Shown: positions 44,391 through 58,235 of the stretch, piece by piece
How the letters are laid out: each line of letters opens with the position of its first letter
Position numbering within the stretch: position 1 is the first letter of the stretch
NCBI GenBank assembly: GCA_026004395.1
Contig: BPJB01000001.1
Span: forward strand, 713,226 to 777,225
DNA from: Patescibacteria group bacterium
Lineage (GTDB): Bacteria; Patescibacteriota; Microgenomatia; Levybacterales; UBA12049
Length of the DNA stretch: 64,000 bases
Direction: 5' to 3'
Translations under genes and position numbers: made by a program
The notes under the pieces: generated by a model
Told to the model about the DNA's origin: nothing
Seen by the model: only the letters and a program-made list of their open reading frames with translations
Databases searched by the model: none

Positions 44391-45473
44391 TTTTCGCTAT
44401 AGGCAGGATGAGAGTAAATGTGGAGCCTTTACCTTTTTGGCTTTTGACTTTTATTATACCACCGTGTTTTTTTGCAATTTCTTGAGATAGATACAGACCT
44501 ATACCAAGCCCGGGAAATGTCCTCTCTTCTATATTGTTTCCTTAATAGAAACGTTCGAAAATTTTATCCTTACTGGTTGGATCTATACCAATCCCAAAAT
44601 CTGTAACTGAAATATATATTTTTCTTTTTGAGTGTGAGAGTTGAATAATAACTTTGTTAGCTTTTGGTAAATATTTAATAGCATTTGTAAGCAAATTAAT
44701 TATGATTTGTCCTATGCGGTCTTTATCTTCATATACTTTCCCCTTTGTCTTCCCTTCAATAATCCATCTATTACTTGAAGTTATCTTCTGCAAATACTCA
44801 ACAATATCCTTGACTATTGAATCAATGGAAAAATAACTCTTAGAATATGGAAGTTTACCTATCTCTATTTTGGAAATATCTAAAAGATCATGGATTAATT
44901 TTGTCAACATATTTATTTGATCATCCATTTTAAGCAGATATTTTCTAGTGTTGTATCTCCTTTTTCTCTTGCTTGTTGTATAAGAACCTGATTATAGACT
45001 TTAAGACTGGTAACAGGTGTGTTAAGTTCATGAGATGCAACAGAGATGAATTCATCCCGCACAGCTACCGCATCCTGTGCTTCTTTGTAAAGCCTTGCAT
45101 TATCAATCGCCAATGAGAGACGGCTCCCCAATTCTTTAATCATTACAAAATCAGTGTGTAAAAATCTTCTTTTTGACTCTGCGTTGACAAGCGTTATTCC
45201 ACCAATTACCTTCCCTTGTGAAAAAATTGGGACAATAATTGCAGAAAAAACTCCCAAACTTCTTAAAAGAGTAAGTTGTCGTTTTGTCACGGAAGCAGCA
45301 ACCAACATCTCATCTGTGATAACTGGATAAAATTCTGCTTTACCTGTTCGTATCACATTTGGCAGTCCTCGTGAGTCTGCGAGATTAAATAAGCCTTGGT
45401 CGCTTTTTAACTTCCATCTATTTATGCATCGCCTCCTCGACTGATTCCAGGGCTTTTTTCCGTATTCTGCCAT
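44391..45473 (-). pseudogene. Remnant hybrid histidine kinase (partial GAF - HisKA - HATPase_c, continuing in frame into the REC domain) disrupted by a 1-nt frameshift near 44913-44928 and an in-frame TAA at 44542-44544
   Basis: Pieces found: a GAF C-half (VIGGITLVNAESKRRFLHTDFVMIKELGSRLSLAIDNARLY), the H-box SHELNTPVTSLK, then MDDQINMLTKLIHDLLDISKIE in a shifted frame, then the N-box LLTNAIKY and D/G-box VTDFGIGIDPTSKDKIFERFY-[TAA]-GNNIEERTFPGLGIGLYLSQEI...GKGSTFTLILP. This runs straight on in the same frame into the REC ORF. The N-terminal half of the GAF domain is missing. Confidence 0.6.
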
Positions 45474-45598
45474 AATAACTCAGCCCTTTTCTTCTAAAGG
45501 AGATTAGACCAATATGAACAAAAATAAAGAGTTTGTAAGAAATCGTAAAGAAAGAATTGTGTTGTTTTCTCTTCTTGTGTATAAATATATAATCCACT

Positions 45599-46783
45599 AT
45601 GGATAAGATAAAACAAAAAGCTCTTAAGCTTCACAAGAAATTTCAAGGAAAGCTAGCGACTATTTCGCTTCCATCTATCATTACAAAAGAAGATCTCTCG
45701 TATTACTATACTCCAGGAGTTGCTGCTGTCTCTGAAGCAATTGTTAAAAATCCATCTCTATCTTTTGATCTTACGTGGCGCGGCAGGACTGTCGCAGTAA
45801 TCTCAGACGGATCAGCAGTATTGGGTCTGGGAAATATTGGTCCTGAGGCAGCTCTTCCTATAATGGAAGGAAAATCACTACTTTTGAAGCACTTTGCCAA
45901 TGTTGACTCAGTACCTATTGTACTTAACACACAAGAACCAACAGAGATTATTCAGTGTATAAAACATCTTGCACCATCATTTGCAGGAATAAATCTTGAG
46001 GATATAGCCTCTCCTTCCTGTTTTATTATTGAAGACGCCCTTCAAAACATTGGAATTCCTGTTTTTCATGATGATCAACATGGAACAGCAATAGTCGTAA
46101 CAGCAGCACTACACAATGCCGCAAAAGTTGTTAACAAGCCATACGAATCTCTCAAAGTAGTCATAGTTGGAGCAGGAGCAGCAGGTCTTGCAGTAGCACG
46201 CATGCTTTTAGGTCTTGACTGTTCAGGTGATTCCTGTCGTTATCTTCCCGGCAGCACATCTGTTAAGGATGTCATTGTTGTTGATACACACGGTGCACTT
46301 TTTACGGGACGAGATAATATGAATATTTATAAACAAGCTATTGCTGGCTTATCCAATAAAGAAAAAAGGGTCGGTCCGCTGCAGGAGGTAATCAAGGGAG
46401 CAGATGCGGTGATTGGTGTCTCACGACCAGGAAGTATTCAACCTGAAATGATAAAATCTATGGCAGACAAACCAATAGTTTTTGCACTGGCAAATCCTAT
46501 TCCTGAGATAATGCCTGATGATGCGAAAAAAGCAGGAGCGTATATCGTAGCAACAGGAAGATCAGATTTCCCCAATCAAATCAATAATCTATTAGCTTTC
46601 CCTGCAGTTTTTAAGGCTGTTATCAAAGGAAGACTGACCAAGATAACACCTCTTATGAAAGAAGCAGCTGCCAAAAAACTAGCTGCTCTCATACCTCATC
46701 CTACACCTGAAAAAATAATTCCAGATCCGTTTTTCCCACATCTTGTTGAGACGGTAAGTGAGGCAATTCTCCAACAAGCATAG
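45599..46783 (+). CDS. maeA: NAD(P)-dependent malic enzyme (short form)
   Basis: N-terminus LSYYYTPGVAAVSEAI and the dinucleotide-binding motif VVIVGAGAAGLAVARML; overall malic_M plus NAD-binding domain order. Confidence 0.85.
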   Translation: MDKIKQKALKLHKKFQGKLATISLPSIITKEDLSYYYTPGVAAVSEAIVKNPSLSFDLTWRGRTVAVISDGSAVLGLGNIGPEAALPIMEGKSLLLKHFANVDSVPIVLNTQEPTEIIQCIKHLAPSFAGINLEDIASPSCFIIEDALQNIGIPVFHDDQHGTAIVVTAALHNAAKVVNKPYESLKVVIVGAGAAGLAVARMLLGLDCSGDSCRYLPGSTSVKDVIVVDTHGALFTGRDNMNIYKQAIAGLSNKEKRVGPLQEVIKGADAVIGVSRPGSIQPEMIKSMADKPIVFALANPIPEIMPDDAKKAGAYIVATGRSDFPNQINNLLAFPAVFKAVIKGRLTKITPLMKEAAAKKLAALIPHPTPEKIIPDPFFPHLVETVSEAILQQA

Positions 46784-46800
46784 TTTCACTACTTCCACAA

Positions 46801-47163
46801 TTATATTGTTATGGGAGAACCCAGCTGAAAAAAGTTACCATCAGGATCTTCAAGTGTACAAAGCCACATCTGATCTTCTTCTGCAGGATGATAAGGCTCT
46901 GCAATTACCTTTGCTCCTAAATTGCGAATCCTCTCAAACTCCCCTTGTACATCATCTGTCTCAAAATTGATCATTATTCTTTCAGGCTGTGTATTTAATC
47001 CATGGACTTTATCGTGTGGACCAATAACAAGAAATTCATTCTCCAAACCAAATCCAACGAAATCTCCTCCTTTCCAATCTGGATCTTTTTGCAGGACTTT
47101 ACTATAAAACTCAATAAGTTGTTGGGGATTTTCTGAAAAAAGTACAATACCTTGTAGTTTCAT
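46801..47163 (-). CDS. VOC-family (glyoxalase/bleomycin-resistance-like) protein
   Basis: Start reassigned to the Met at 47163 (MKLQGIVLF), which is preceded by the strong SD gaggaggtgaattatATG. The beta-alpha-beta-beta-beta VOC pattern ends with ...LEDPDGNFFQLGS. Confidence 0.6.
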   Translation of the reverse strand: MKLQGIVLFSENPQQLIEFYSKVLQKDPDWKGGDFVGFGLENEFLVIGPHDKVHGLNTQPERIMINFETDDVQGEFERIRNLGAKVIAEPYHPAEEDQMWLCTLEDPDGNFFQLGSPITI

Positions 47164-47384
47164 ATAATTCACCTCCTCTCGTGATATTTTTATCTTTACC
47201 ACTTAATTAATAATCTCTACTGATATTCTAACAGCTACTATACAAAAATAACTGACCAATTATATGTAAGAGATGAGTGATAATTATGTAAAATGTAAAA
47301 CGAATGCAACACAAATTCTACAAGACAATCTTAATAACTTGTAATAGACAAATCTTTTATTCTTTGGGATAATTCATCTTGTCA

Positions 47385-47469
47385 GGAGAGATGACCGAGT
47401 GGTTTATGGTAGCGGTTTACTAAACCGCCGTCTCGCAAGGGACCGTGGGTTCGAATCCCACTCTCTCCG
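47385..47469 (+). tRNA. Type-II (long variable arm) Ser-like tRNA; the anticodon reads ACU in the hand fold (GCU expected for AGY codons)
   Basis: Acceptor ggagaga/tctctcc with discriminator G (Ser-like). D-stem acc/ggt of 3 bp. Anticodon stem gcggt/accgc with loop ttACTaa. Variable stem gtctc-gcaa-gggac. T-arm gtggg-ttcgaat-cccac. No encoded CCA. It is followed by a GC-rich hairpin plus T-run at 47480-47530. The architecture matches E. coli tRNA-Ser position for position. Confidence 0.75.
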
Positions 47470-47796
47470 CAAGTTAGGTAATGAAGCAGTTGGCTCGCCG
47501 GCTACGCGGGCTCGCCAGCCGTTTTTGAATACAAAATGGCTTTCTATTTTTGGATTATCTCTCATCCCATATCAAACCGCCGGCATAGGTTTTTGTTCCG
47601 GCAGTAGTTAAGAATTGCTGTAATTTCTTCTGATCAACAATTTTATTCTAACATGTTAAATTTGATTTTGTCTGAATAGTCTCAGATTTTATTTTGGTCA
47701 GAAGCAGGTTTTTCTTATTTTCCTTGCCTAATTTATTTGGTATCATTATGTTGAAAGCAGAGATTATTAATACCGCAATAACACACTATCAAGTTA

Positions 47797-48009
47797 TTGA
47801 AAATATGGAAAGAAAAAATTACATTGGAATATATAAAGAAATTCCTTACAAAACAAGGCTTATCGCTGGAAGCTTTTACCAAGAAATACGGAGTGGAATA
47901 CACCACCCTGACAAAAATTGAAAATGAAGTTATTAAAAAGCCCCTTGTTTTGGTAATTGCTAAAATTGCTAAGGCATTAGGTGTAAATATTGAAGAGTTA
48001 ATAAAATAA
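47797..48009 (+). CDS. XRE-family HTH controller (C-protein-like) gene preceding the methyltransferase
   Basis: 70 aa. LTKQGLSLEAFTKKYGVEYTTLTKIEN is an HTH_3 motif. The stop lies 1 nt before the MTase ATG, the typical arrangement for an R-M controller protein. Confidence 0.55.
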   Translation: MKIWKEKITLEYIKKFLTKQGLSLEAFTKKYGVEYTTLTKIENEVIKKPLVLVIAKIAKALGVNIEELIK

Positions 48010-48010
48010 T

Positions 48011-48847
48011 ATGCAAAACATAACAACTATAAAACAAAGTAAAAAAGATGAATATACGAGAGAAACAAAACCATACTTTGAATATAATAACATTATTATT
48101 TACAAAGATGACATTTTAAAGATCTCTAATATTCAGAATAATTCAATAGATTTAATTGTTACCTCACCACCTTATAATGTTGATATTCATTATAATTCTC
48201 ACATTGATAATTTAACTTATAACGATTATTTAGAATTTACAAAAAAATGGATTAAGAAATGTTTTGAATTGACAAAGGATGATGGGCGTTTTTGTCTCAA
48301 TATACCACTAGATAAAAATAAAGGAGGTCAACAGTCGGTTTGCGCTGATATCACTAAAATTGCAAAGGATGTAGGTTGGAAATATCACTCTACTATAATC
48401 TGGAATGAAGGAAATATCTCTCGAAGAACAGCATGGGGATCGTTTATGTCTGCATCTGCACCTTATGTTATTGCTCCTGTAGAAGTAATATTAGTTCTAT
48501 ACAAAAAGAATTGGAAAAAAATCAGTGGAAGTAAAAAAAGTGATATTACAAAAAAAGAATTTATGGATTGGACTAATGGAATTTGGAGTTTTGGTGGAGA
48601 AAGTAAAAAAAGAGTTGGCCATCCCGCACCCTTTCCTATAGAATTACCTCGCCGTTGTATAAAACTTTTTTCTTATGTAGGTGATACAATATTAGATCCA
48701 TTTTTAGGAAGTGGTACAACACTTATTGCGGCTTATCTAAATAAGAGAAAAGGCATAGGTGTTGAGATAGATAAGGAATATTGTGATTTAGCAATCAAAC
48801 GATTAAAACAAGAAGCACAAATTAATCAAATTAATTTTAATTTATAA
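48011..48847 (+). CDS. Beta-class DNA methyltransferase (N4-cytosine/N6-adenine, motif IV S-P-P-Y before motif I)
   Basis: Motif IV DLIVTSPPYNV near the N-terminus and motif I ILDPFLGSGTT near the C-terminus (D12/N6_N4_Mtase order). Confidence 0.8.
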   Translation: MQNITTIKQSKKDEYTRETKPYFEYNNIIIYKDDILKISNIQNNSIDLIVTSPPYNVDIHYNSHIDNLTYNDYLEFTKKWIKKCFELTKDDGRFCLNIPLDKNKGGQQSVCADITKIAKDVGWKYHSTIIWNEGNISRRTAWGSFMSASAPYVIAPVEVILVLYKKNWKKISGSKKSDITKKEFMDWTNGIWSFGGESKKRVGHPAPFPIELPRRCIKLFSYVGDTILDPFLGSGTTLIAAYLNKRKGIGVEIDKEYCDLAIKRLKQEAQINQINFNL

Positions 48848-48856
48848 AATAGAAAT

Positions 48857-49447
48857 ATGAGTAAAGGTGATAAAAAGTCTATTGGCGATTTAATAAAAGA
48901 GTATTTTAAAAAACATCCTAATCAAGACCTTCAACATGGTCCTGTTGTTGATTGGGTTGAAGATAAATATTTAAAGTTGTACGGAAAGAAACCTCGTGAC
49001 ACATGGAGAAATATTAGAAAACTTCACGAGGAAGGTTTTTTGATTAAAGTTAAAAAAGGTATTTATCGTTATGATCCTGAGTATGTGAAGCAAAAAGAAA
49101 TTGACGATTTTACACCAAAACAAAAAGAGCAAATTTTGAAAAGAGATGGCTATAAATGTGTAATTTGCGGTAGTGGCAGAAAAGAAGGAGTCGAATTACA
49201 CGTAGATCATATTAAGCCAAAATACTTGGGTGGAAAATCTACTATTGAAAATGGTCAAACATTATGCGCTCAACACAACTTTATTAAAAAGACTCTGAAA
49301 CAAACAGAAACCGGGAAGAAAATGTTTATTCGTCTTTATGAGTTAGCAAAAAGTGAAAGGAATGAAGAACTAAAGAAATTTTGCGCAGACATTTTAGAAA
49401 CTTATGAAAAATACAATATTAATGGTCACATAGTCTGGAAAAGATAA
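48857..49447 (+). CDS. HNH-family nuclease, putative restriction endonuclease partner of the MTase
   Basis: HNH motif GYKCVICGSGRKEGVELHVDHIKPKYLGGKSTIENGQTLCAQHN. It sits immediately downstream of the MTase. Confidence 0.65.
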   Translation: MSKGDKKSIGDLIKEYFKKHPNQDLQHGPVVDWVEDKYLKLYGKKPRDTWRNIRKLHEEGFLIKVKKGIYRYDPEYVKQKEIDDFTPKQKEQILKRDGYKCVICGSGRKEGVELHVDHIKPKYLGGKSTIENGQTLCAQHNFIKKTLKQTETGKKMFIRLYELAKSERNEELKKFCADILETYEKYNINGHIVWKR

Positions 49448-49449
49448 TT

Positions 49450-50355
49450 ATGCCAATACCAGATTATCAATCAATAATGCTTCCGCTTCTTAAGTTTGCC
49501 TCTGATAAGAAGGAGCATTCAATTAAAGAAGCGATCGAATATTTAGCCGATCTTTTCAAATTAAACGAAGATGAAAGAAAAGAAGTTTTACCGAGCGGTC
49601 AGCAGTATATTTTCGACAATCGTGTAGGTTGGGCAAGAACTTATTTAAAGAAAGCGGGCTTGCTTGAATCAACGCGGAGGTCGTTTTTCAAAATAACTGA
49701 TTTAGGATTAGAGGTGTTAGGCAAAAATCCGCAAGAAATAAATGTTAAATTTCTTGAGCAATTTCCTCAATTTGTTGAATTTCGAAATATTCGTCGGCAA
49801 AAAGACAAGGAGGATCGTGAAGAAGAGGAATTAGAACAAACTCCACAGGAATTACTTGAATATGGTTATCAAAGAATCAAAAGTGAATTGGCTCAAGAAT
49901 TGTTGAATTCAGTTAAACAATCATCTCCTCGCTTTTTTGAAAAACTAGTTGTTGATCTATTGATTAAAATGGGTTATGGCGGTTCGTTGAAAGATGCTGG
50001 TAAAGCAATTGGCCAAAGTGGCGACGGTGGTATAGATGGAATTATCAAAGAAGATAAACTCGGCCTTGATGTGATTTATATCCAAGCAAAAAGATGGGAT
50101 AATGTAGTTGGCTCAAAAGAAGTTCGAAATTTTGTTGGAAGTTTAGCTGCTCAACACGCAAATAAAGGAGTATTTATTACTACTTCAAGTTTTACCAAGG
50201 ATGCCTTAGATTATGTTAAAACAATTCCTCATAAGGTGATTTTAATTGATGGGGAAATGCTAACGCAATTAATGATTGAAAATGATATAGGAGTATCTAA
50301 AATAACTAGTTACGATATTAAAAAAATTGATTCAGATTATTTTGAAGAGGAGTAA
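49450..50355 (+). CDS. mrr: Mrr-family type IV (modification-dependent) restriction endonuclease
   Basis: Mrr_N winged helix (MPIPDYQSIMLPLLKF...) and Mrr_cat PD-(D/E)xK core (GDGGIDGIIKEDKLGLDVIYIQAKRW). Confidence 0.85.
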   Translation: MPIPDYQSIMLPLLKFASDKKEHSIKEAIEYLADLFKLNEDERKEVLPSGQQYIFDNRVGWARTYLKKAGLLESTRRSFFKITDLGLEVLGKNPQEINVKFLEQFPQFVEFRNIRRQKDKEDREEEELEQTPQELLEYGYQRIKSELAQELLNSVKQSSPRFFEKLVVDLLIKMGYGGSLKDAGKAIGQSGDGGIDGIIKEDKLGLDVIYIQAKRWDNVVGSKEVRNFVGSLAAQHANKGVFITTSSFTKDALDYVKTIPHKVILIDGEMLTQLMIENDIGVSKITSYDIKKIDSDYFEEE

Positions 50356-50394
50356 AAGAATTTGCCGCCAAAGAAAATTTGTTAAAATAAATTT

Positions 50395-50820
50395 ATGAAT
50401 AATCTAATCGCTAAAGTATCAACTACCATCAATGCTCCCATCGCAAAGGTTTGGTAGGCATTGACGAATCCAGAGATTATAAAGCAATATATGTTCGGAA
50501 CAAATGTTGTTTCCGATTGGCAAGTAGGAAGCTCGATCGTCTGGAAGGGGGAATGGCAGGGAAAATCGTATGAGGACAAAGGAAAAATCCTTAAATTTGA
50601 AAAGGAACGAAAACTGCAATACACTCATTTCAGTCCGCTAACGGGCAAGCCTGACGTGCCGGAAAACTACCATACTGTTACTATCGAACTTTCTAATAAT
50701 GGATCACAAACGACCGTTAGGCTCTCACAAGACAATAACGAGACCGAAGAAGCTCGCCAACACTCTGAAAAGAATTGGCGAATGATGTTGGAGGGCTTGA
50801 AAAAACTTTTGGAGAAATAG
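50395..50820 (+). pseudogene. AHSA1/SRPBCC-domain gene with an in-frame TAG at 50455-50457
   Basis: Translation from the ATG at 50395 gives MNNLIAKVSTTINAPIAKVW-[TAG]-ALTNPEIIKQYMFG..., the conserved AHSA1 N-terminal strand (I-x-A-P-x-E-K-V-W-[ED]-A-L-T-D-P-E). A GAG to TAG change would explain it. The track ORF 50461-50820 only starts at a TTG after the stop. Confidence 0.6.
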
Positions 50821-50982
50821 ACTAAGAGTTTGCTGCTAAAGAAAAAATTTGAAATCGTCCTTTTTACTTTTGATTTAGAGCAAGGTGTGCTGCTGCATTT
50901 TCCCTATATAGACCTTTATATGTCACAGTCGTTGGAATTATTTTTTAGTAACAACTTCAGAATTTTACAAGTTTACAAAGTC

Positions 50983-51327
50983 TTATTTAATATCCAATAA
51001 ACAATCACAAGGTTTTAATTTAAGAATGTTTTTCTGCTCTTTTATTGTATTAATAAAAACTTGCTGAACACTGGAACCTGTGGCTAATTTTTTATCTAAA
51101 GGAGTAAAATGCTTATAATTACGACGAGCAAATTCTTTTACCAATTTCTCGTGTCGCAAATAGAGTGCTTTAGTTTTTCCAACCCAGCGCAATGTCTCTG
51201 GATGCTTTGAATATCCTCCCTTCCCCTTGTGCTTGGTTAAAATATTCCACAGTGCGTGCAGCTCACGGTGTTCACCTAATAAATGTTTTCGACAAAGATA
51301 TTTTGGATCTATATCCCAAATTCGCAT
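50983..51327 (-). CDS. Pyrimidine-dimer DNA glycosylase (T4 endonuclease V-like, Pyr_excise family)
   Basis: MRIWDIDPKYLCRKHLLGEHRELHALWNILTKHKGKGGYSKHPETLRW follows the family N-terminal consensus M-R-[LI]-W-x-[LI]-x-P-K-Y-L...E-x-x-A-L-W...GY-x-x-H-P-x-x-x-R-[FW]. Confidence 0.55.
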   Translation of the reverse strand: MRIWDIDPKYLCRKHLLGEHRELHALWNILTKHKGKGGYSKHPETLRWVGKTKALYLRHEKLVKEFARRNYKHFTPLDKKLATGSSVQQVFINTIKEQKNILKLKPCDCLLDIK

Positions 51328-51328
51328 A

Positions 51329-51736
51329 TCATTTATTTAAGTAGGTAATAGTCAATTGCAAAATAGTGGCGAATATGGCCCAAAGTAAATAGGGAACATT
51401 AATATAAACTACCCATCGTAATTCAGGTACACTCTGCCATAAAGAATAGAGTGCCCAAATCAGTGAAGCGACAACAAGTAAAATATCTAGAGAAGCCAAA
51501 AGATTGTTTCTCAATTTGAATTGCAAAGGTGTAAAAATGAAGTTAAAAATTAGATTAAGAGCAAATGGTAAGGATACAATCCACGATATGTTGCTAGTAA
51601 ATGCTCTATAGAATACAGCACCAAAAGAAACTGCAATGATTGCATAAAGCACCATCCATACAGGACCAAAAATCCAAGCAGGTGGTGACCATGAAGGTTT
51701 AGTTAACATTTGATAGCGTTTATAATTTTCGTTCAT
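51329..51736 (-). CDS. tspO: TspO/MBR tryptophan-rich sensory protein
   Basis: LTKPSWSPPAWIFGPVWMVLYAIIAVS and five TM helices with a Trp-rich composition. Confidence 0.8.
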   Translation of the reverse strand: MNENYKRYQMLTKPSWSPPAWIFGPVWMVLYAIIAVSFGAVFYRAFTSNISWIVSLPFALNLIFNFIFTPLQFKLRNNLLASLDILLVVASLIWALYSLWQSVPELRWVVYINVPYLLWAIFATILQLTITYLNK

Positions 51737-52008
51737 AAGATCATTATAGTTAAAATTTAATTTTTTTTATTATCCTAATTGTCTTACAGTAAATATTCCA
51801 ATCATTGACAGAGTTTTGATTATTCAGACGATCATTTATAAAATATTGTATACTATTCATTCCTTTGATTGTTGATATTATTATATTTGATTTTATTAAC
51901 TCTATCTATTAACAGAAAGGGGAAACAGACTAGAGACTCTGCTACACAACAAACATTGTAAACTTATTAATAAGTTTAATAATAAGTTTTATTTAAATCT
52001 ATAAAGAA

Positions 52009-52644
52009 ATGAAATACTCAAACAAAGATAGGCAGATAAATAATGATTTTTATAGTTACTTTATCAGACATCACCAAGATGATGGTTGGGGTGATAAAGA
52101 TAAATATGGAAATTTTGAACTACTCTGTAAAATTGTAGATTTTACCAATTCTTCTCTAATGAATGCTTCAGTTTTAGATGTTGGTTCCGGAACAGGAGAT
52201 TTTTCTGAATATCTGAGAAAACAAGGTATAAAAGAGTATGTAGGTATAGATATCTTCCCAATGTCTGTTGATCTTGCCAAAATGAAATACAATGAAACAT
52301 TTATATGTAGCGATTTCTTAGATTATAAATTTCAGCGAAGATTTGACTATGTTTTTTCATCAGGTGCAATTGCTGCTATTTTGGATACAGATAATTATCA
52401 AATTCTGACTGCGTTTGTTAGTAAAATGTGGAGACTAGCTGAAAAAGGAGTAGCGTTTAACTTTTTAACAAGAGAATATACCAAAGAAAACGACGATGAA
52501 CTTTTCCTCTATGACTTTGATGAGGTTTTAAGAATTTGCCGTAACATTGTAAAAAGTGCACCCATTAAATATGTTCAAAATCGGGCTGGAGATAACAATG
52601 AGTTTTTACAAACTCATATATATCTTTTAAAAAAACAGAGGTGA
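52009..52644 (+). CDS. Class I SAM-dependent methyltransferase
   Basis: Motif I VLDVGSGTGDFSEYL and post-I acidic residue (IDI). Confidence 0.65.
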   Translation: MKYSNKDRQINNDFYSYFIRHHQDDGWGDKDKYGNFELLCKIVDFTNSSLMNASVLDVGSGTGDFSEYLRKQGIKEYVGIDIFPMSVDLAKMKYNETFICSDFLDYKFQRRFDYVFSSGAIAAILDTDNYQILTAFVSKMWRLAEKGVAFNFLTREYTKENDDELFLYDFDEVLRICRNIVKSAPIKYVQNRAGDNNEFLQTHIYLLKKQR

Positions 52645-53008
52645 AACCCCTAAAATAGATTATTTTATTTGAGTTCTACCTCATCTCTCAATAGCTCAAC
52701 TATTACTCTCTTCTTACTCATCTTTTCTTCAACTCTTACTCTTCTTCAGTAGAGTATGAACTATTGATGGGAGGTGATATTGTGAATCTATTTATAGGGA
52801 GTAATCTGAGTCCTCTGACAGCACTACTATTGGAATCCTAATTCTTATATTTCCGCGTTTTCTCAATTATCTTATTGCATTTTATTTGATTTTAAGCGGA
52901 CTTATAGGTTTGCGAATACTCAATCTTTAATAAACAACAAATTGTGTTCCAACACGGGCAAAATCATATATCTATTGCGATGCTTCCAGAGGTAGGTTAA
53001 CACATCCA

Positions 53009-53320
53009 TTACTTACATCTGCCAAATGCAGTATGCCAATAAGCTCTATGTATTGCGTAGGATTTATAAAAATACATTACATTGGGAACATCTTTATGAA
53101 AGTACCTGCCAAACACTGTATTTATTCCACGCATATCTTGTCTTGGCAATTTCCAATATATCTTAAACTTGCCTTTTACAGTTGTCGCCTTCGCAACACC
53201 TGTTGACACGATTGTTTCATAAACCACTCTCCCCTCCCATACCTATAACTTTTGCTTACGAATATCAATGGTTATAAGCTATTAGCCTCTGCTCTAGCCT
53301 GCACAAATGCCAAATTAAAA
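53009..53320 (-). pseudogene. L,D-transpeptidase (YkuD-domain) remnant: in-frame TAG at 53243-53245, an upstream frameshift and a degenerate catalytic end
   Basis: The minus strand reads ...LITIDIRKQKL-[TAG]-VWEGRVVYETIVSTGVAKATTVKGKFKIYWKLP...NVMYFYKSYAIHRAYWHTAFGRCK-stop. This follows the YkuD consensus (I-x-V-x-L...VSTG...T-P-x-G-x-F-x-I...Y-A-I-H-G...S-H-G-C) but has H-R for H-G and terminates just before the S-H-G-C catalytic cysteine. The region upstream of LITIDI is in another frame and has double stops. Confidence 0.4.
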
Positions 53321-53525
53321 AAAATGAACAGGTATGCACTAAATAAAAAAATTTTACTTATAAAAAATTTATAAAAAATATAGATTCTTTAGTCAAAGTA
53401 ATAAATAATCTATATTACTCAAAATTTCACTACCAGTGATGCAATCAGATGTGACATATTAAAATTTTATCTAACAAAAAGTAAAAGAAAAAATCTGCTA
53501 TAATTAGCGACCTTTAGATATTTAA

Positions 53526-55713
53526 TTGTGTTTTATTATGATAAAAAGAATCTTTCATGAGCTCTGGATTATATTTAAGAAACCACTATTTGCTCTTTTT
53601 ATTATATGGGGTATCCTGTTTGTGATAATTCCTCTTTTTACATATCTTTATTTTGTCCGCGACCTGACTAGTAAAGAAAATATCATCACTCGCAAAAACA
53701 GTGGAATTATTTTACTGGATCGCAACAACAAGCCATTTTTTAGTTTCTATGAAGCAAAGTCAAAAAACAATGTTCCGATTGATCAGATACCAGAAATAAC
53801 TAAAAAAGCAGTTATCTCAATCGAAGACAAAAATTTCTATCAACATAATGGATTTTCAATTGAAGGCTTAGCAAGAGCAATCTTGGCCAACATTGAGGAA
53901 GAACGATTTTCACAAGGAGGATCAACAATTACACAACAACTTGTAAAAAATACACTTTTATCCCCTGAGAAAAGTCTTCTTCGTAAATACCAAGAATTGG
54001 TTTTGGCACTAGAGATTGAGCGCAGATTCAGCAAAGACGACATTTTAGAAATGTATCTTAACACTGTATATTTTGGTGAAGGTGCTTTCGGAATTCAAGA
54101 TGCCGCGCAATCCTATTTTGGAAAAGATGCTAAAAATTTAACACTTGCTGAGAGTGCTCTGCTTGCTGCAATTTTACCTGCTCCCTCTGCTCTATCTCCT
54201 CTATCAGGAGATGCGCAACGAGCATTTGATAGACAGGAACTTGTTCTACGACTAATGGAAGAACAAGGATATATCACTCGCCAAGAACGACTGGCAGCAG
54301 AAAAAGAAAAAATTATCTTTCATCCTAGACGTCAGGATATAAATGAACAAGCTCCCCACTTTGCACTCATGGTAAAAGATGAACTTATTAGAAGATATGG
54401 AGAGCAGACAATTGCACGATCTGGATTTAGGGTAAGAACAACTATTGATATTGAAAAGCAAAAATTTGCGGAAAAGATTGTAGCAAATCAAATCCAGCGC
54501 TTAAAACAAAACCGGGCTACAAATGGCGCAACTGTTGCAATCAATCCCAAAACAGGTGAAATACTTGTTCTGGTGGGAAGTCATAGCTGGTTTGATGAGG
54601 TAAATGGGAAAATAAATATGGCTACTTCACCTCGTCAACCTGGATCATCCTTCAAACCCATTGTTTATGCAAAAGCATTTGAAGAAAGAGTAATTACTCC
54701 TGCAACAGTGCTTGAAGATAAACCAATTACTTACCCTGACGGATATAAACCTAAAAATTATGACGGTCGGTATCGTGGACAAATACTCGCTAGATTTGCT
54801 TTGGCTAATTCTTTGAATATCCCTTCAATTCATGTATTAGAAAAAATAGGAATTCCAGCAGCAGTTGAGATGGCAAAGCGTATGGGTATAACGACTCTTA
54901 AAAACCCATCTGATTATGGCCTTTCACTTGTTTTAGGATCAGCTGAAGTACCGCTAATAGAAATGACAAGCGCATTTGGAGTATTTGCTAATGAGGGCAA
55001 ACTATCAACAAGAACAACTATTCTTGAAATTAGAGACAGAAAAGGCAAGCTTATTTATTCTTACACACCATCTACAAAGCTTATTCTCGATCCAAGAATT
55101 GCTTTTTTTGATCTCATCAATTCTTTCTGATTCTATAGCAAGAGCTCCCACATTTGGTAATGCGCTGAATCTCTCCCGTCCGGCAGCGGTAAAAACAGGA
55201 ACTACTGAAGACTTCAAAGATGCACTCACCATTGGTTATACACCAAGTCTTGTGATTGGAGTATGGATAGGCAATAATGATTACACTCCAATGGATAGCG
55301 TTGCAGGCTCCTTAGGTGCTGCACCAATCTGGAGACAACTTATGGAAAATTTTTTAAGTAGAACACCTGTTGAGAGATTTCTACCTCCAGCAAATATTCT
55401 TAGAGTTATGGTTTGCAAAGATAACGGTCTGAGAGCAGAAACTGCAACAAGTAGTGCATACATGGAGTTTTTCCTTCCTGGTACTATCCCAACAAAATCT
55501 TGTACAAATCCCCTATCTATTCCAACGCCAACAGAAATAGAAGTCACACCCACATCTATACCTAATGAGGAGCCAATACCTACTGTAACACCTACTCCAA
55601 CCCCCACCCCAACAGAAATACCAAGAGAAGAAATCAGACGACGAATTCTCGAACAATTAACACATCCTCCCGGTCAGGAAAAGAAAAACGAAGATCAGAT
55701 ATTAAATCGATAA
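53526..55713 (+). CDS. Class A penicillin-binding protein (PBP1A: GT51 transglycosylase plus transpeptidase), split by a frameshift at the T7 run 55103-55109
   Basis: GT51 motifs (ISIEDKNFYQHNGF, GGSTITQQLVKN, RKYQELVLALEIERRFSKDDILEMYLN). Transpeptidase motifs (SxxK as GSSFKP, SxN as ANSLN, and KTG as VKTGTTED in the second ORF). With T6 instead of T7 the junction reads RIAFLISSILSD continuously. The C-terminus has a Pro/Thr-rich tail. Confidence 0.75.
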
Positions 55714-55738
55714 ATCTCTTTTGAATTTGATTAGCTTT

Positions 55739-56326
55739 CTATCCAGACTGAGTATCCTTATAAACTTCATCTTTCTGTGTAAATATCTCGTCTCGAATAA
55801 TACTCTTATGCTCATCAACATTGGGAAGAAGCTCCTCAAGAATCCTAACGTAACGATGAGGATTGTGAATTGCGTACATTACTGCACAAGTGTCCAATCT
55901 CCAATCGAAAAGCGTAAGTGTACCATAATTAAAAAATTTGCCAAATACTCCCTGAATGAGAACAACCTGTTTTATATTGTGTAAACCATATCTATCTTCT
56001 TTCTTAAAAATGACTCCTCTTTTATGAGACACAGCATAAGGAGAAATCTCATAATACTCACACAACCATTGTAAAACAATAAAAATAGTCAGCAATGTTT
56101 CAAAAATTGTAAGTACAATAAATGCCACAAAACCATAAATATTACTATTAACATTGAAAATATTTGTAAGATTTGATTGAGACAACAAAAACAACACGAT
56201 AATAATAATTCCAGTGGTAATCATATCAGTGATGATCAGTCTTAATACCAATAGAGAAATACTCATCCTTACGTTAACATGATCAATCTGTATTTTTTTG
56301 CGGGGTTTTTCTTGCTTCTCGTCCAT
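55739..56326 (-). CDS. Membrane protein with bacterial PH domain (bPH_2, YdbS/YdbT-like)
   Basis: Two TM helices followed by ...CEYYEISPYAVSHKRGVIFKKEDRYGLHNIKQVVLIQGVFGKFFNYGTLTLF, typical of the DUF304/bPH_2 fold. Confidence 0.55.
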   Translation of the reverse strand: MDEKQEKPRKKIQIDHVNVRMSISLLVLRLIITDMITTGIIIIVLFLLSQSNLTNIFNVNSNIYGFVAFIVLTIFETLLTIFIVLQWLCEYYEISPYAVSHKRGVIFKKEDRYGLHNIKQVVLIQGVFGKFFNYGTLTLFDWRLDTCAVMYAIHNPHRYVRILEELLPNVDEHKSIIRDEIFTQKDEVYKDTQSG

Positions 56327-56803
56327 ATGTCTTATATCTTAGTAAATTCTCAAGTTAAATACAATTTAAATTAAACACTTTTTTAGCAATCAAAGTTTGC
56401 AACATTTATATACTACTTCAGGATCTTTAGAGGTTTTTCTATAAAAATATATCAAAAAATTATTGTATTTTCTGCAGTTGATTTAATTCCTTTTAATTCC
56501 TAAGAATAAATAGTAGAAAAAATTTAATAAGCTAACGATTAGTAAAAGCAAATCACAAATTCACCTCGAGCGGCATTTTGTGATTTTATTCTCAGATATC
56601 AAAAGACATTATCTATGTATAATTAAAAAATTAAGTTGTGAACAAAGTTATACCGATGATATTCTATTCCCTATTCCTCAAATCTTCTATCCTCTGCATC
56701 TATTAGTATCTAATCTAGAGATGATTGATAAACTTTAAACTTATTATGTTAATATAGTTTTAGTATCAAAAATTGATTGCACTTTAATGTTGCATCTCTA
56801 AGA

Positions 56804-57400
56804 TCAATTATCTTCAATGTAATATCTAATTTCTTGTTCTTGCGGTTGAAGGAGATTATATAAATAAGTTATGTCTTCATCTCTATGACGAATACAACCT
56901 GAACTCCCTGGATCATCAGGGGAAAGTCGGGTCAGATCTCCACCAACGCCATGCAGACCAAACGGTCCAGGAATCGTCCAGTTGCATTGTCCATTACACT
57001 CAAGATAAGGACTGGGACCGTAAGGTTCACGATCCGCTGTAGGAATATTGAGTGTGAGAAAGTATGGTGCTGTCTCTTTATTGGAAGATAATTCTTTTTT
57101 GGTTATTAACCAATATTCTCTTCCTAAAATCTTAGGCAAAGGTGTTGGCCTCTCACCTGGAATTCCTGTTTTCACAAAGAATGTTCTGATCAGCTGTGAT
57201 TTATCACGTTGACCTGGAACACCATAAAAAAGATTTTCCTTATTGGATTTTCTATGGAGAACAAACCAATAAATTCTTTTCTCTTCATCAGCTTGTCTTC
57301 GCTCTGTACTCAATGAAAAATCAGATGCAATAGCGATTAAAACGATTAGTAAAATTATAAGAAAAAGAAGTACTGCTATTTTTTCTTTTAGAAATACCAT
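56804..57400 (-). CDS. L,D-transpeptidase (YkuD domain), membrane-anchored
   Basis: N-terminal TM anchor and the catalytic motif GLHGVGGDLTRLSPDDPGSSGCIRHRDEDI (H...S-x-G-C-[IV]-R). Confidence 0.75.
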   Translation of the reverse strand: MVFLKEKIAVLLFLIILLIVLIAIASDFSLSTERRQADEEKRIYWFVLHRKSNKENLFYGVPGQRDKSQLIRTFFVKTGIPGERPTPLPKILGREYWLITKKELSSNKETAPYFLTLNIPTADREPYGPSPYLECNGQCNWTIPGPFGLHGVGGDLTRLSPDDPGSSGCIRHRDEDITYLYNLLQPQEQEIRYYIEDN

Positions 57401-57548
57401 GCCGTTATGATATCAAAATACTCACTTTTATGTCTTGAGTATATCTTGAGAAACTGACGTTAATTACAATAATTTTGAGACATCTTGTGCAAATCTCATA
57501 TTGATTGTTCATAGGTATTTTAGTATCAAGGTAGTCTAAGTAGAAATT

Positions 57549-58130: not shown

Positions 58131-58235
58131 TATATAGTTTTAATTCTTTGTTAACTAGACATAGTAGAATGTTGTTAATGATTTTAACCTGATTACCTAC
58201 TAGACGACATCTATGTTTTCGTATATTATTTTGGA

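What the first reader, a model, noticed from the sequence alone, without database searches (positions are those of the whole stretch)
47385..50355. tRNA-linked restriction islet: C-protein - beta-class MTase - HNH nuclease plus Mrr
A type II-like R-M module lies immediately 3' of a tRNA, which is a classic integration hotspot. It consists of an HTH controller, an S-P-P-Y beta-class methyltransferase and an HNH nuclease, with genes 1-8 nt apart. A methylation-dependent Mrr type IV enzyme follows. The flanks contain decayed accessory genes (an SRPBCC pseudogene). No integrase or att repeat is visible, so the acquisition may be old. Co-residence of a methylating system and a modification-dependent Mrr is an interesting compatibility question.
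Basis: partly seen in the sequence, partly recalled or inferred. Interest (0 to 1): 0.55.

Follow-up and report, generated by a model that had tools for sequence, protein, structure and literature searches.

The report
tRNA-linked restriction-modification islet with Mrr
This is an ordinary but well-preserved bacterial anti-foreign-DNA gene cluster (a methylase, its partner DNA-cutting enzyme, a small regulator and a second enzyme that cuts foreign-methylated DNA) that was inserted next to a serine tRNA gene in a tiny Patescibacteria genome; it is a new member of known families, not a new kind of system.

Summary
tRNA-Ser (47385-47470) is followed by four co-directional genes 1, 9 and 2 nt apart: an HTH gene, an SPPY beta-class MTase, an HNH nuclease and Mrr.

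- **R-M core.** The MTase-HNH pair is a real, widely transferred type II R-M module. In 72 of 80 genomes from many bacterial and archaeal phyla the MTase orthologue lies directly upstream of the HNH orthologue.
- **Accessories.** C and Mrr are optional. None of the 80 genomes has Mrr beside the pair. The same C (80%) and Mrr (88%) bracket a different M-R pair in other contigs.
- **Islet.** A close relative (87% nt) is colinear up to the last base of the tRNA and again from 51992. It carries different DNA in between, so the variable islet is 47471-51991, larger than reported.
- **Origin.** No intact integrase is present. Short relics match both ends of a large serine recombinase gene that flanks related cassettes.
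- **Decay.** The C gene has a 2-nt deletion that puts its conserved ATG out of frame. The SRPBCC gene carries an in-frame TAG.
- **Unknowns.** Specificity, activity and M/Mrr compatibility are untested; m4C is inferred.

Verdict: new member of known kinds, modest interest. The conserved tRNA-Ser(ACU) anticodon is the oddest side observation.

The parts
47385..47470 (+). tRNA-Ser with anticodon ACT (A34); left anchor of the islet
   Evidence: ARAGORN and Rfam at 55.4 bits. The anticodon loop reads TTACTAA. The identical tRNA occurs in relative L174, and ACT is also found in L175. Homology with L174 ends at 47470.
47471..47539 (-). 'T' flank: a relic resembling the 3' end (last ~23 codons beyond the tRNA overlap) of a large serine recombinase (LSR) gene, read antisense. 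It contains GC-rich terminator-like hairpins.
   Evidence: The L170 LSR gene 3' end matches 47539-47382 at 73% (E 1e-18). tblastn aligns LSR residues 460-504 at 58% (E 4e-8). The flank is absent after the same tRNA in L174. Terminator-like sites lie at 47517-47541 and 47599-47620.
47681..47753 (+). Left end of cassette homology ('P' region). It includes GGTCAGAAGCAGGTTTTTC and an extended -10-like TGGTATCAT (47738-47746). It carries a 6-nt deletion in the -35 region relative to orthologues.
   Evidence: DNA homology with L006 starts at 47688 and with L170-172 at 47681. Alignment. The same 19-nt motif precedes the LSR start codon in L170.
47776..47799 (+). Candidate operator dyad CAATAAC-N10-GTTATTG, overlapping a TATCAA -10-like hexamer just upstream of ATG 47805
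   Evidence: The dyad is conserved (0-1 mismatch) in L170, L006 and L012. No canonical GACT..AGTC C-box is present. It has not been tested functionally.
47797..48009 (+). C-protein-like HTH gene (Xre/HTH_3). The conserved ATG at 47805 is out of frame because of a 2-nt deletion near 47826-47827, so the HTH frame is reachable only from TTG 47797 or TTG 47824.
   Evidence: Pfam HTH_3 6e-10. PADLOC Control_protein 1.8e-6. Pairwise alignments to L170, L172 and L006. All tblastn hits start at query residue 11 or later.
48011..48847 (+). Beta-class DNA methyltransferase, SPPY motif IV; N4-cytosine specificity inferred
   Evidence: Pfam N6_N4_Mtase 9e-49. PADLOC MTase_II 1e-101. SPPY in 75/75 intact orthologues. 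The best PDB relatives, 2zie and the m4C enzyme 8s9n, are also SPPY.
48857..49447 (+). Putative type II restriction endonuclease: N-terminal winged helix plus HNH (CxxC...DH...N...CxxH)
   Evidence: Pfam HNH 1e-9. Invariant catalytic and zinc residues in alignment A3. AF2 winged helix at residues 9-75, pLDDT above 80. Foldseek returns only winged-helix hits. An MTase lies directly upstream in 72/80 genomes.
49450..50355 (+). Mrr-family type IV (modification-dependent) endonuclease, full length, with D...QAK motif
   Evidence: Pfam Mrr_N 8e-34 and Mrr_cat 9e-36. PADLOC mREase_IV 1.3e-94 over 1-300. Sequence. Homologues at 75-90% identity are widespread.
50353..50386 (+). 'A-seq' copy 1: a relic of LSR codons ~28-36, marking the right end of the Mrr cassette
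   Evidence: 25/25 nt identical to L170 6304-6328, inside the LSR CDS 6222-7736. The same sequence follows the Mrr stop in L002, L167, L169, L170 and L172. It is direct repeat D1.
50395..50820 (+). SRPBCC/AHSA1 pseudogene (in-frame TAG at 50455-50457), lying between the two A-seq copies
   Evidence: Pfam AHSA1 5e-19 on 50461-50820. The upstream in-frame sequence MNNLIAKVSTTINAPIAKVW* is visible.
50824..50885 (+). 'A-seq' copy 2 plus the first ~25 nt of repeat element X, a relic of the element's right end
   Evidence: 86-90% identity to L170 6307-6341, L169 5907-5945 and the L002 downstream flank.
50983..51736 (-). Pyrimidine-dimer glycosylase (50983-51327) and TspO (51329-51736). Both lie inside the variable region relative to L174. 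Whether they arrived with the cassette is unknown.
   Evidence: Pfam Pyr_excise 7e-25 and TspO_MBR 3e-24. Both are absent from L174 between the tRNA-Ser and the methyltransferase gene, and colinearity resumes at 51992.

Best explanation
The core (48011-49447) is a classical two-gene type II restriction-modification module.

- The beta-class SPPY methyltransferase marks a short DNA motif, most likely as N4-methylcytosine.
- The winged-helix/HNH protein cuts the same motif when it is unmethylated.
- This M-HNH pair is a compact, very widely transferred cassette.

In this genome the core is framed by two accessory genes that travel independently of it.

- Upstream lies a small Xre-type controller (C) gene with its own promoter and operator region.
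- Downstream, 2 nt after the HNH stop, lies a full-length Mrr that attacks foreign-methylated DNA.
- The operon could therefore restrict both unmodified and alien-modified DNA.

The block lies in a 4.5-kb variable islet (47471-51991) that begins exactly at the 3' end of tRNA-Ser(ACU) and is absent from a close relative.

- It most likely arrived on, or inside, a large-serine-recombinase integrative element that targets tRNA genes.
- That recombinase has since been deleted, leaving short relics of its 3' end (47471-47539) and of codons ~28-40 (50353-50386; 50824-50863).

Shown:
- gene content and catalytic motifs;
- M-HNH linkage across genomes;
- modularity of C and Mrr;
- islet boundaries against a relative;
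- recombinase relics by sequence identity.

Inferred:
- m4C chemistry;
- HNH as the cognate REase;
- co-transcription of the four genes;
- Mrr being blind to the resident methylation;
- the recombinase-mediated route of entry.

The control region looks partly decayed: a 2-nt deletion in C and a 6-nt deletion in the -35 region. Regulation may therefore no longer work as it does in orthologues.
For: Domains and motifs:
- Pfam and PADLOC assignments.
- SPPY before FxGxG in the MTase.
- Invariant HNH and zinc residues.

M-HNH linkage:
- In 80 species-representative genomes carrying an HNH orthologue (62-92% id), 72 have a near-full-length MTase orthologue (58-91% id) immediately upstream on the same strand. 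The median gap is 4 nt.
- M and HNH identities to the window proteins are correlated (r = 0.71). Most exceptions are contig-end truncations.
- SPPY is present in 75/75 intact orthologues.
- SPPY is shared with PDB 2zie and the m4C enzyme 8s9n.
- The pair also sits on plasmid pCALNI01 of cultured Calditerrivibrio nitroreducens.

Modularity of C and Mrr:
- Mrr is absent next to all 80 genome loci.
- C-M-HNH-Mrr recurs in L002/L003 with M 85%, HNH 89% and Mrr 88% identity, but C only 50%.
- L170-172 carry C (80%) and Mrr (88%) around an unrelated DPPY MTase and a 177-aa protein. The homology breakpoints fall at window 48050 and 49441.
- L169 has tRNA-Ser, a truncated C, then Mrr, with no M-R pair.

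Islet:
- L174 (malic enzyme 94% id) aligns to 45551-47470 at 87.5% and to 51992-59866 at 81.6%, with 1.4 kb of unrelated DNA between.
- GC drops to 0.26-0.34 across the module, against 0.36-0.42 upstream.

Recombinase relics:
- Evidence: - In L006 the HNH stop is followed directly by LSR codons 29-437 (86%).
- In L042, L052 and L004 an LSR lies beside the cassette; in L042 and L052 it sits between a tRNA and the cassette.

Family-wide tRNA linkage:
- 14/67 loci have a same-strand tRNA within 500 nt upstream, against about 1.3 expected (Poisson 2e-10).
- L070 shows att-like direct repeats that include a pseudo tRNA 3' end.
Against: - No methylation motif, cleavage activity or transcript data exist. 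The recognition sequence is unknown, and palindrome avoidance in the window is uninformative.
- The HNH protein matches no characterised REase beyond the generic HNH core. Its catalytic core was modelled poorly (pLDDT ~30).
- The C gene's conserved ATG is out of frame and no Shine-Dalgarno precedes any of the four genes. Expression and control are therefore uncertain.
- Gene order C-M-R differs from the classical C-R operon.
- There is no intact integrase and no tRNA-derived direct repeat in the window.
- The recombinase relics are short (25-70 nt). Part of the 'T' similarity overlaps the tRNA itself.
- Only 4 of the 80 genome loci have an LSR nearby, and the immediate neighbours are mostly housekeeping genes. 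The recombinase route may hold only for the Patescibacteria sub-lineage.
- m4C cannot be the general reason for Mrr tolerance, since the same Mrr clade sits next to a DPPY (probably m6A) MTase.
Confidence: 0.8

Rival explanations
1. The module is a decaying, largely silent relic. M, HNH and Mrr ORFs are intact, but the control region is broken (C frameshifted, promoter -35 deleted). The operon would then be expressed weakly, or only M would remain functionally important.
For: - A 2-nt deletion puts the conserved ATG of C out of frame.
- A 6-nt deletion lies between the -35 and -10 elements relative to L170 and L006. The consensus scan finds no good promoter there.
- The neighbouring AHSA1 gene carries a nonsense codon, and other flank genes look fragmented.
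- In relatives the frame decays too: Mrr is cut by an IS in L002 and C is truncated in L169.
Against: - All three enzyme ORFs are full length with every catalytic motif intact and 85-92% identical to the closest orthologues.
- An extended -10 (TGGTATCAT) remains.
- A TTG start in the HTH frame exists, and a gene caller picked it.
- An intact R gene with a silent M gene would be lethal, so at least M is probably expressed.
Confidence: 0.2
2. The HNH protein is not the cognate restriction enzyme. It would be a mobility (homing-type) nuclease or a modification-dependent McrA-like enzyme, and the MTase would be an orphan or be paired functionally with the Mrr-family nuclease.
For: - Sources annotate homologues generically as 'McrA'.
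- NCBIfam gives weak hits to IscB and PT-DNA restriction HNH domains.
- No characterised REase relative was found.
- The cassette is strikingly mobile and often sits beside tRNA genes without an integrase.
- Methylation-dependent HNH enzymes exist (PMC8989522).
Against: - M-HNH adjacency in 72/80 genomes, with overlapping or near-abutting ORFs and correlated divergence, is the signature of an M-R pair.
- Mrr is absent from all 80 loci, so it cannot be the MTase's usual partner.
- The N-terminal domain is a plain winged helix, not an SRA/SBD-type modified-base reader.
- No close homologues occur in phage or viral collections, where homing HNH genes abound.
Confidence: 0.07
3. The islet did not arrive on a serine-recombinase element. 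The M-HNH cassette (with C and Mrr) was captured by recombination or transformation into a permissive, strongly transcribed spot after a tRNA. The recombinase-like fragments would be hitch-hiking flanks of the Mrr and C cassettes.
For: - Most of the 80 loci have housekeeping neighbours and no recombinase.
- Several cassettes start 31-122 nt after a tRNA, with no room for their own promoter. Selection for read-through expression would explain this.
- The A-seq always travels with the Mrr 3' end.
- M-R pairs have evidently been swapped between conserved C and Mrr flanks.
Against: - The window also carries the LSR 3'-end-like 'T' flank directly after the tRNA, which the close relative lacks.
- L170, L042 and L052 show intact LSR genes whose 3' ends run up to or into a tRNA next to such cassettes.
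- L174 carries the 47-nt X-core at the same tRNA-Ser site, at 96-98% identity to copies in unrelated contigs.
- L070 has att-like repeats.
Confidence: 0.3

Closest known systems
C-protein-controlled type II R-M systems (PvuII, AhdI, Esp1396I; PMC2175313, PMC2647307)
   Same: A small Xre-type HTH gene at the head of the system. A conserved promoter-proximal region with a dyad just upstream of the C start. Separate M and R proteins.
   Different: Gene order is C-M-R in one direction, rather than a C-R operon with a separately transcribed M. There is no GACT...AGTC-type C-box. The nuclease is HNH rather than PD-(D/E)XK. Here the conserved C start codon is frameshifted. Only about 12 of 80 M-HNH cassettes have a detectable C.
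HNH (beta-beta-alpha-Me) type II restriction enzymes such as KpnI, Hpy99I, PacI (own knowledge; review PMC4081073 listed, not read here)
   Same: A small (about 200 aa) nuclease with CxxC...H...N...CxxH zinc/HNH architecture, encoded next to a cognate MTase.
   Different: No sequence similarity beyond the HNH core to any PDB chain or PADLOC REase model. The N-terminal winged-helix recognition domain is specific to this family. Recognition site unknown.
E. coli K-12 Mrr and the hsd-mrr-mcrBC immigration control region (PMC3874153)
   Same: Mrr_N winged helix plus Mrr_cat with a D...QxK motif; about 300 aa; located beside a modification-blocked R-M system.
   Different: Here Mrr starts 2 nt after a type II R gene, apparently in the same operon. 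The same Mrr clade is found behind at least two unrelated M-R pairs. Modification preference untested.
PcaRCI R-M versus PcaRCII methyl-dependent endonuclease conflict in Pectobacterium (PMC8989522)
   Same: A mobile R-M system and a modification-dependent nuclease co-reside in one genome, raising a self-targeting problem.
   Different: In Pectobacterium the conflict is solved by epigenetic silencing of a pre-existing, unlinked nuclease gene. Here the two are adjacent, co-oriented and transferred together at least twice, which suggests intrinsic compatibility rather than silencing. In L002 Mrr is instead interrupted by an IS.
tRNA-targeted genomic islands, and mobile R-M units with long target duplications (Furuta, Abe & Kobayashi 2010, NAR; own knowledge)
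   Same: Insertion exactly at a tRNA 3' end. Absent from a close relative. Lower GC. In relatives, a recombinase whose 3' end overlaps the tRNA and att-like repeats (L170, L070).
   Different: The window has no intact recombinase and no att repeat. The recombinase in relatives is a large serine recombinase, not the usual tyrosine integrase. Most family members are bare two-gene cassettes.

Membership tests
Type II restriction-modification system (separate M and R) | DNA MTase with SAM-binding motif I and catalytic motif IV | tested here: met
   FLGSG at 231-235 and SPPY at 52-55. Pfam N6_N4_Mtase 9e-49. PADLOC MTase_II 1e-101.
Type II restriction-modification system (separate M and R) | Adjacent nuclease gene with an intact catalytic motif | tested here: met
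   HNH Pfam hit 1e-9. C101/C104, D117-H118, N132, C137, H140 and N141 are invariant in 35 sequences.
Type II restriction-modification system (separate M and R) | M and R genes linked and co-inherited across unrelated genomes | tested here: met
   72/80 genome loci; median gap 4 nt; identity correlation r = 0.71.
Type II restriction-modification system (separate M and R) | Sequence-specific cleavage that is blocked by the cognate methylation | not testable with these tools
   Needs a methylome and enzyme assays. REBASE is not available here.
N4-cytosine (m4C) beta-class MTases | SPPY/SPPF motif IV and m4C product | tested here: inconclusive
   SPPY is invariant in 75/75 orthologues and shared with the m4C enzyme 8s9n and with 2zie. 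The motif is suggestive, not diagnostic, and the product was not measured.
C-protein (controller) regulated R-M | Small HTH (Xre-type) protein encoded at the head of the system | tested here: met
   HTH_3 6e-10. PADLOC Control_protein 1.8e-6.
C-protein (controller) regulated R-M | C-box operator (paired palindromes) upstream of the C gene | tested here: inconclusive
   No GACT..AGTC motif. A dyad CAATAAC-N10-GTTATTG (47776-47799) is conserved in four cassettes. Binding was not tested.
C-protein (controller) regulated R-M | C co-transcribed with, and directly preceding, the R gene | tested here: not met
   The order is C-M-R, and the same order is found in L002, L006 and L170.
C-protein (controller) regulated R-M | Intact C reading frame from its conserved start | tested here: not met
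   A 2-nt deletion relative to L170, L172 and L006 puts ATG 47805 out of frame. Only TTG starts remain.
Mrr family type IV restriction enzyme | Mrr_N winged-helix domain plus Mrr_cat PD-(D/E)XK-variant domain, about 300 aa | tested here: met
   Mrr_N 8e-34 (residues 6-90) and Mrr_cat 9e-36 (156-275). PADLOC mREase_IV 1.3e-94 end to end. ...GIDGIIKEDKLGLDVIYIQAKRW....
Mrr family type IV restriction enzyme | Cleavage dependent on DNA modification | not testable with these tools
   Only in vivo evidence exists even for E. coli Mrr (PMC3874153).
tRNA-integrated genomic island | Begins at the 3' end of a tRNA gene and is absent at that site in close relatives | tested here: met
   L174 homology stops at 47470 and resumes at 51992. 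L175 has only ~760 nt (one 143-aa ORF) between the tRNA and the methyltransferase gene.
tRNA-integrated genomic island | Integrase or recombinase gene within the island | tested here: not met
   tblastn with the L170 LSR finds only a 45-aa C-terminal-like stretch at 47538-47407. A-seq relics of 25-36 nt remain.
tRNA-integrated genomic island | Direct repeat of the tRNA 3' end (attL/attR) at the far boundary | tested here: not met
   No repeat of 11 nt or more within 12 kb downstream. The only flanking repeat (D1, 31 nt, 77%) brackets the AHSA1 pseudogene.

The most novel reading that the evidence does not exclude
C ... Mrr may be a conserved 'frame' with an exchangeable middle slot, a restriction-cassette platform in Patescibacteria.

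- Different M-R pairs (M-HNH here; a DPPY MTase plus a 177-aa nuclease in L170-172; none in L169) would be swapped between the conserved C/promoter block and Mrr.
- The whole unit would be bounded by half-sites derived from a large serine recombinase gene (A-seq) and a 47-nt repeat (X). An LSR acting in trans could then move it to tRNA 3' ends.
- In this reading Mrr is not an accidental neighbour. It would be a built-in guard that excludes competing methyltransferase-bearing elements, while tolerating whichever methylation occupies the slot.
Probability: 0.15. Interest if true: 0.6.

Novelty: new member of a known kind. Interest (0 to 1): 0.3.

Why it matters
- **Annotation.** The result gives a well-founded annotation for a very widespread but uncharacterised M-HNH restriction-modification family. 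More than 3,800 homologues were found, with 62-92% identity across many bacterial and archaeal phyla.
- **Experimental handle.** A cultured carrier, Calditerrivibrio nitroreducens DSM 19672 plasmid pCALNI01, could be used to determine the family's recognition site.
- **Genetic tractability.** Patescibacteria are hard to manipulate. Knowing which methylation protects DNA, and that an Mrr may reject E. coli-methylated DNA, matters in practice for transformation.
- **Mobility of minimal R-M cassettes.** Same-strand placement just after tRNA genes, serine-recombinase relics and swapping of M-R pairs between conserved flanks document how such cassettes move. These findings extend known themes rather than revealing a new mechanism.

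Tried and rejected
- **att sites.** A search for direct repeats of the tRNA 3' half downstream of the cassette found none in the window. In 15 tRNA-linked loci only short or chance matches appeared, except in L070.
- **Structured RNA.** Rfam on the GC-rich X element and flanks (L002, L006, L007, L012) returned only tRNAs. In the window it also returned only the two tRNAs.
- **Recognition-site inference.** Palindrome avoidance in the 64-kb window gave no clear outlier; GGCC and TCGA are only mildly low.
- **Relating the HNH protein to a solved or characterised REase.**
  - PDB sequence search gave only IscB, ZRANB3 and generic HNH hits.
  - The AF2 model is good only for the winged helix.
  - Foldseek gave only winged-helix proteins at E above 0.008.
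- **Phage origin.** The INPHARED phage set and IMG/VR hold only distant HNH-core hits (50% identity or less), so a phage or homing origin was rejected.
- **Searches for related loci.**
  - The metagenome-contig scan with the malic enzyme returned only relatives of 53% identity or less and was useless for synteny.
  - Exact-protein look-ups of flank genes found only the same 4.6-kb Logan contig.
  - The close relative L174 came only from the third homologue search.
- **Canonical C-box.** GACT...AGTC is absent.
- **ACT anticodon as an error.** I considered a sequencing or calling error and rejected it, because L174 and L175 share the anticodon.
- **'T' similarity.** I considered that the match to the recombinase is merely tRNA conservation. 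That holds for the overlapping 23 codons. The 69-nt extension is absent after the identical tRNA in L174, so it is element-derived.
- **Integrases near the 80 cassettes.** A family census of nearest neighbours shows housekeeping genes and a few other R-M genes, with no recurrent integrase.

Full report
**1. Observation**

The region is as described.
- ARAGORN and Rfam place a tRNA-Ser at 47385-47470.
- Four co-directional ORFs follow: 47797-48009 (70 aa), 48011-48847 (278 aa), 48857-49447 (196 aa) and 49450-50355 (301 aa). The gaps between them are 1, 9 and 2 nt.
- Pfam assigns HTH_3, N6_N4_Mtase, HNH and Mrr_N+Mrr_cat.
- PADLOC assigns Control_protein (2e-6), MTase_II (1e-101), a weak REase_II (5e-5) and mREase_IV (1e-94, end to end).
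- The MTase has SPPY at residues 52-55 ahead of FLGSG at 231-235, which is the beta-class order.
- The downstream SRPBCC/AHSA1 gene is a pseudogene. It starts at ATG 50395 and carries an in-frame TAG at 50455-50457.
- GC falls to 0.26-0.34 across the module, against 0.36-0.42 upstream.
- The window comes from a Patescibacteria MAG. The identical Mrr protein is recorded on a 1.08-Mb NCBI contig. The nearest malic-enzyme relatives are named Levybacteria.

**2. Is MTase-HNH a real R-M pair?**

The HNH protein has more than 3,800 homologues, and the best 120 are all at least 78% identical.

A scan of one genome per species returned 80 loci. By record title they come from:
- bacteria: Patescibacteria, Planctomycetota, Pseudomonadota, Bdellovibrionales, Omnitrophota, Bacteroidota, Elusimicrobiota, Acidobacteriota, Spirochaetota, Chloroflexota, Ignavibacteria and Thermodesulfobacteriota;
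- archaea: Woesearchaeota, Nanoarchaeota and Methanobacteriota.

Most are MAGs, so some taxonomic labels may be binning errors.

tblastn of the window proteins against these loci gave the following:
- A near-full-length MTase orthologue (58-91% id) lies directly upstream on the same strand in 72 of 80. Most exceptions are contigs that end inside the pair.
- The median M-stop to HNH-start distance is 4 nt.
- M and HNH identities to the window proteins correlate (r = 0.71).
- SPPY is present in all 75 intact orthologues.

This is the signature of a cognate M-R pair. It argues against an orphan MTase and against a homing or McrA-type HNH.

The HNH protein keeps every catalytic and zinc residue. 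Its N-terminal 75 residues fold as a winged helix (pLDDT above 80). Foldseek finds only winged-helix DNA binders and no modified-base reader domain. No characterised REase is detectably related beyond the HNH core.

Close relatives are absent from phage and viral collections. One sits on plasmid pCALNI01 of cultured Calditerrivibrio nitroreducens DSM 19672 as an M-HNH pair.

The best PDB relatives of the MTase, 2zie and the N4-cytosine enzyme 8s9n, also carry SPPY, whereas a DPPY enzyme scores lower. m4C is therefore the likeliest product, but this is an inference.

**3. C and Mrr are separable accessories**

- A C homologue is detectable next to only about 12 of the 80 cassettes, and Mrr next to none.
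- The four-gene arrangement recurs in L002/L003. There M, HNH and Mrr are 85-89% identical to the window, but C is only 50% identical. In L002 an rve-type IS cuts Mrr at codon ~276.
- The Mrr clade is itself widespread at 75-90% identity.
- In L170-172 an 88%-identical Mrr follows, by 6 nt, an operon made of a C gene (80% identical to the window's), an unrelated DPPY MTase (30% id) and a 177-aa protein with no Pfam domain. DNA homology with the window covers 47681-48050 and 49441-50371. The M-R pair has therefore been exchanged almost exactly between C and Mrr.
- In L169 a tRNA-Ser(CGA) is followed by the 3' half of a C gene and then Mrr, with no M-R pair.
- In L169 (protein P0132) Mrr has no other defence gene beside it.

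So C and Mrr form a recurring frame around variable contents, but neither is required by the M-HNH pair.

**4. State of the control region**

The block from about 47681 to the C start is conserved with L006, L170 and L012.
- It contains an extended -10-like TGGTATCAT.
- It also contains a dyad, CAATAAC-N10-GTTATTG (47776-47799), that is kept in all four sequences. This is a candidate operator.
- No canonical GACT..AGTC C-box is present.

Relative to the orthologues, the window has two lesions.
- A 6-nt deletion lies between the -35 and -10 elements.
- A 2-nt deletion near 47826-47827 puts the conserved ATG (47805) out of frame. The HTH can then be made only from TTG 47797 or TTG 47824.

None of the four genes has a Shine-Dalgarno sequence, whereas the neighbouring host glyoxalase gene has GGAGGTG. 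Two terminator-like hairpins separate the tRNA from the module. Control may thus be impaired, although the three enzyme ORFs are pristine.

**5. Islet and its origin**

A close relative, L174, has a malic enzyme 94% identical to the window's.
- It aligns with the window at 87.5% over 45551-47470 and at 81.6% over 51992-59866.
- Homology stops at the last base of the tRNA.
- In between, L174 has 1.4 kb carrying two small GIY-YIG ORFs. The window has 4.5 kb: the module, the AHSA1 pseudogene, a pyrimidine-dimer glycosylase and TspO.

A more distant relative, L175, has only one 143-aa ORF between this tRNA and the methyltransferase gene that corresponds to window 52009.

No intact integrase and no tRNA-derived repeat exist in the window. 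Three relics point to a large serine recombinase (LSR).
- (a) The 25 nt after the Mrr stop (50353-50377) are identical to codons ~28-36 of an LSR gene that lies just downstream of Mrr in L170. A second copy at 50824-50885 continues into a repeat element, X.
- (b) In L006 the HNH stop is followed directly by LSR codons 29-437 (86%).
- (c) The 69 nt after the window tRNA resemble the antisense of the LSR 3' end, which in L170 runs into a tRNA-Ser. This stretch is missing after the identical tRNA in L174.

LSR genes also sit beside M-HNH cassettes in L004, L042 and L052. In L042 and L052 the LSR lies between a tRNA and the cassette.

A 47-nt X-core is 89-98% identical in L002, L003, L006, L007, L167-172 and L174 itself. 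This shows recent spread of the associated element and an independent visit to the same tRNA site in the sister lineage.

I read the window islet as the eroded remains of such an element. I put about 0.5 on this part, because the relics are short and most family members elsewhere lack any recombinase.

**6. tRNA linkage is a family property**

- Among 67 genome loci with at least 500 nt of upstream sequence, 14 have a tRNA gene within 500 nt upstream of the cassette.
- All 14 tRNAs are on the cassette strand. They have at least nine identities (Ser, Thr, Tyr, Pro, Ala, Trp, Met, Gln, Ile).
- About 1.3 such loci are expected from the tRNA density in the remaining flanks (Poisson 2e-10).
- Some cassettes start only 31-122 nt after the tRNA, which leaves little room for a promoter. 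Selection for read-through expression is one plausible contributor (inference).
- L070 shows an imperfect ~50-nt direct repeat, including a pseudo tRNA 3' end, around M-HNH plus one ORF. This is compatible with site-specific integration.

**7. Compatibility of M and Mrr**

The review by Loenen and Raleigh lists E. coli Mrr as restricting m6A and m5C, with m4C '(-?)' (PMC3874153). If the SPPY enzyme makes m4C, Mrr may simply not see it.

That cannot be the whole answer. An 88%-identical Mrr follows a DPPY MTase in L170-172. Mrr's poorly defined sequence preference must also matter. The IS-disrupted Mrr in L002 shows that the gene is dispensable or sometimes costly.

A documented contrast is Pectobacterium, where an incoming R-M system silences an unlinked methyl-dependent nuclease (PMC8989522). 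None of this can be settled computationally.

**8. Comparison and verdict**

Each part belongs to a known kind:
- a type II R-M pair with an HNH nuclease;
- an Xre-type controller gene;
- an Mrr type IV enzyme;
- a tRNA-linked island.

Membership tests are met for the R-M pair, for Mrr and for island placement. They are not met for the classical C-R operon layout, for an intact C frame, or for an integrase and att repeats in the window.

The specific M-HNH family is uncharacterised and remarkably widespread. The C...Mrr frame with swapped contents is a mildly new observation. I rate the finding a new member of a known kind, with interest 0.3.

Noticed in passing
window 47385-47470; L174 2098-2184; L175 1923-2010 (minus): The tRNA-Ser has anticodon ACT (A34; loop TTACTAA) instead of the usual bacterial GCT for AGY codons. 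The identical tRNA is in a 94%-related genome, and ACT is also kept in a 77%-related one, so this is a lineage feature and not an error. AGC codons are used (89, against 161 AGT, in the window's 40 ORFs of 200 aa or more). Inosine at position 34 would misread AGA (Arg). No literature was found.
   Followed up: partly
L006-L085 (80 genome loci): The M-HNH cassette lies within 500 nt downstream of a same-strand tRNA gene of many identities in 14 of 67 loci, against about 1.3 expected. There is usually no integrase, and sometimes only 31-122 nt separate the tRNA from the cassette.
   Followed up: yes
L170 3265-5903; L172 395-2946: The same C (80%) and Mrr (88%) bracket a different pair: a DPPY beta-class MTase (287 aa) and a 177-aa protein with no Pfam domain. 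The latter is presumably an uncharacterised restriction endonuclease.
   Followed up: partly
L170 3069-3190 and 5974-6095; L002 ~1-261 and 4067-4381; L174 2615-2661; also L003, L006, L007, L167-L169, L171, L172: A GC-rich repeat element, X, has a 47-nt core at 89-98% identity across different contigs. It occurs as inverted copies flanking C-M-R-Mrr cassettes. It contains a degenerate tRNA-Ser 3'-like part and a terminator-like hairpin. It has no Rfam match.
   Followed up: partly
L170 6222-7736 and 7584-7758: The last ~50 codons of a 504-aa large serine recombinase are encoded antisense to a tRNA-Ser gene and its 3' flank. A perfect palindrome, GCCTCGC-TGT-GCGAGGC, lies at codons ~41-46, between the A-seq and the 'B' segment that appear on opposite sides of the cassettes. 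This may be a recombination site.
   Followed up: partly
L002 2067-4049: The Mrr gene in the other C-M-HNH-Mrr locus is interrupted at codon ~276 by an rve-family IS. The last 24 codons are displaced 1.1 kb downstream.
   Followed up: partly
L169 4780-5903: tRNA-Ser(CGA) is followed directly by the 3' half of a C gene and then Mrr and the A-seq. The M-R pair and the C promoter are missing.
   Followed up: partly
L070 560-640 and 2860-2905: An imperfect ~50-nt direct repeat (25 nt exact) includes a pseudo tRNA 3' end (CTTCCGCCA). It brackets M-HNH plus a 117-aa ORF immediately after tRNA-Ser(GGA), in att-like fashion.
   Followed up: partly
window 50356-50386 and 50824-50854: A 31-nt direct repeat (77%), each copy being a recombinase codon ~28-38 relic, brackets the AHSA1 pseudogene. 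The pseudogene may have been inserted into that relic, or two cassettes may each end with it.
   Followed up: partly
window 44542-45473: A histidine-kinase-like gene is split into two overlapping ORFs (44913-45473 and 44542-44928, minus strand), which suggests a frameshift.
   Followed up: no
window 53009-53227: A 72-aa minus-strand ORF lies where the relative L174 has a 150-aa YkuD gene (L174 4553-5005). It may be a truncated copy of that gene; no domain search was run on it.
   Followed up: no
L007 5148-5958: In this tRNA-Ser-linked C-M-HNH locus, the MTase match is split into two pieces (residues 3-61 and 74-273) while the HNH ORF is intact. This is either an assembly error or a disrupted M next to an intact R.
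   Followed up: no
L174 2224-3100: The sister genome carries two small GIY-YIG-domain ORFs and an X-core at the same tRNA-Ser site instead of the R-M module. One ORF is also conserved in L175.
   Followed up: no
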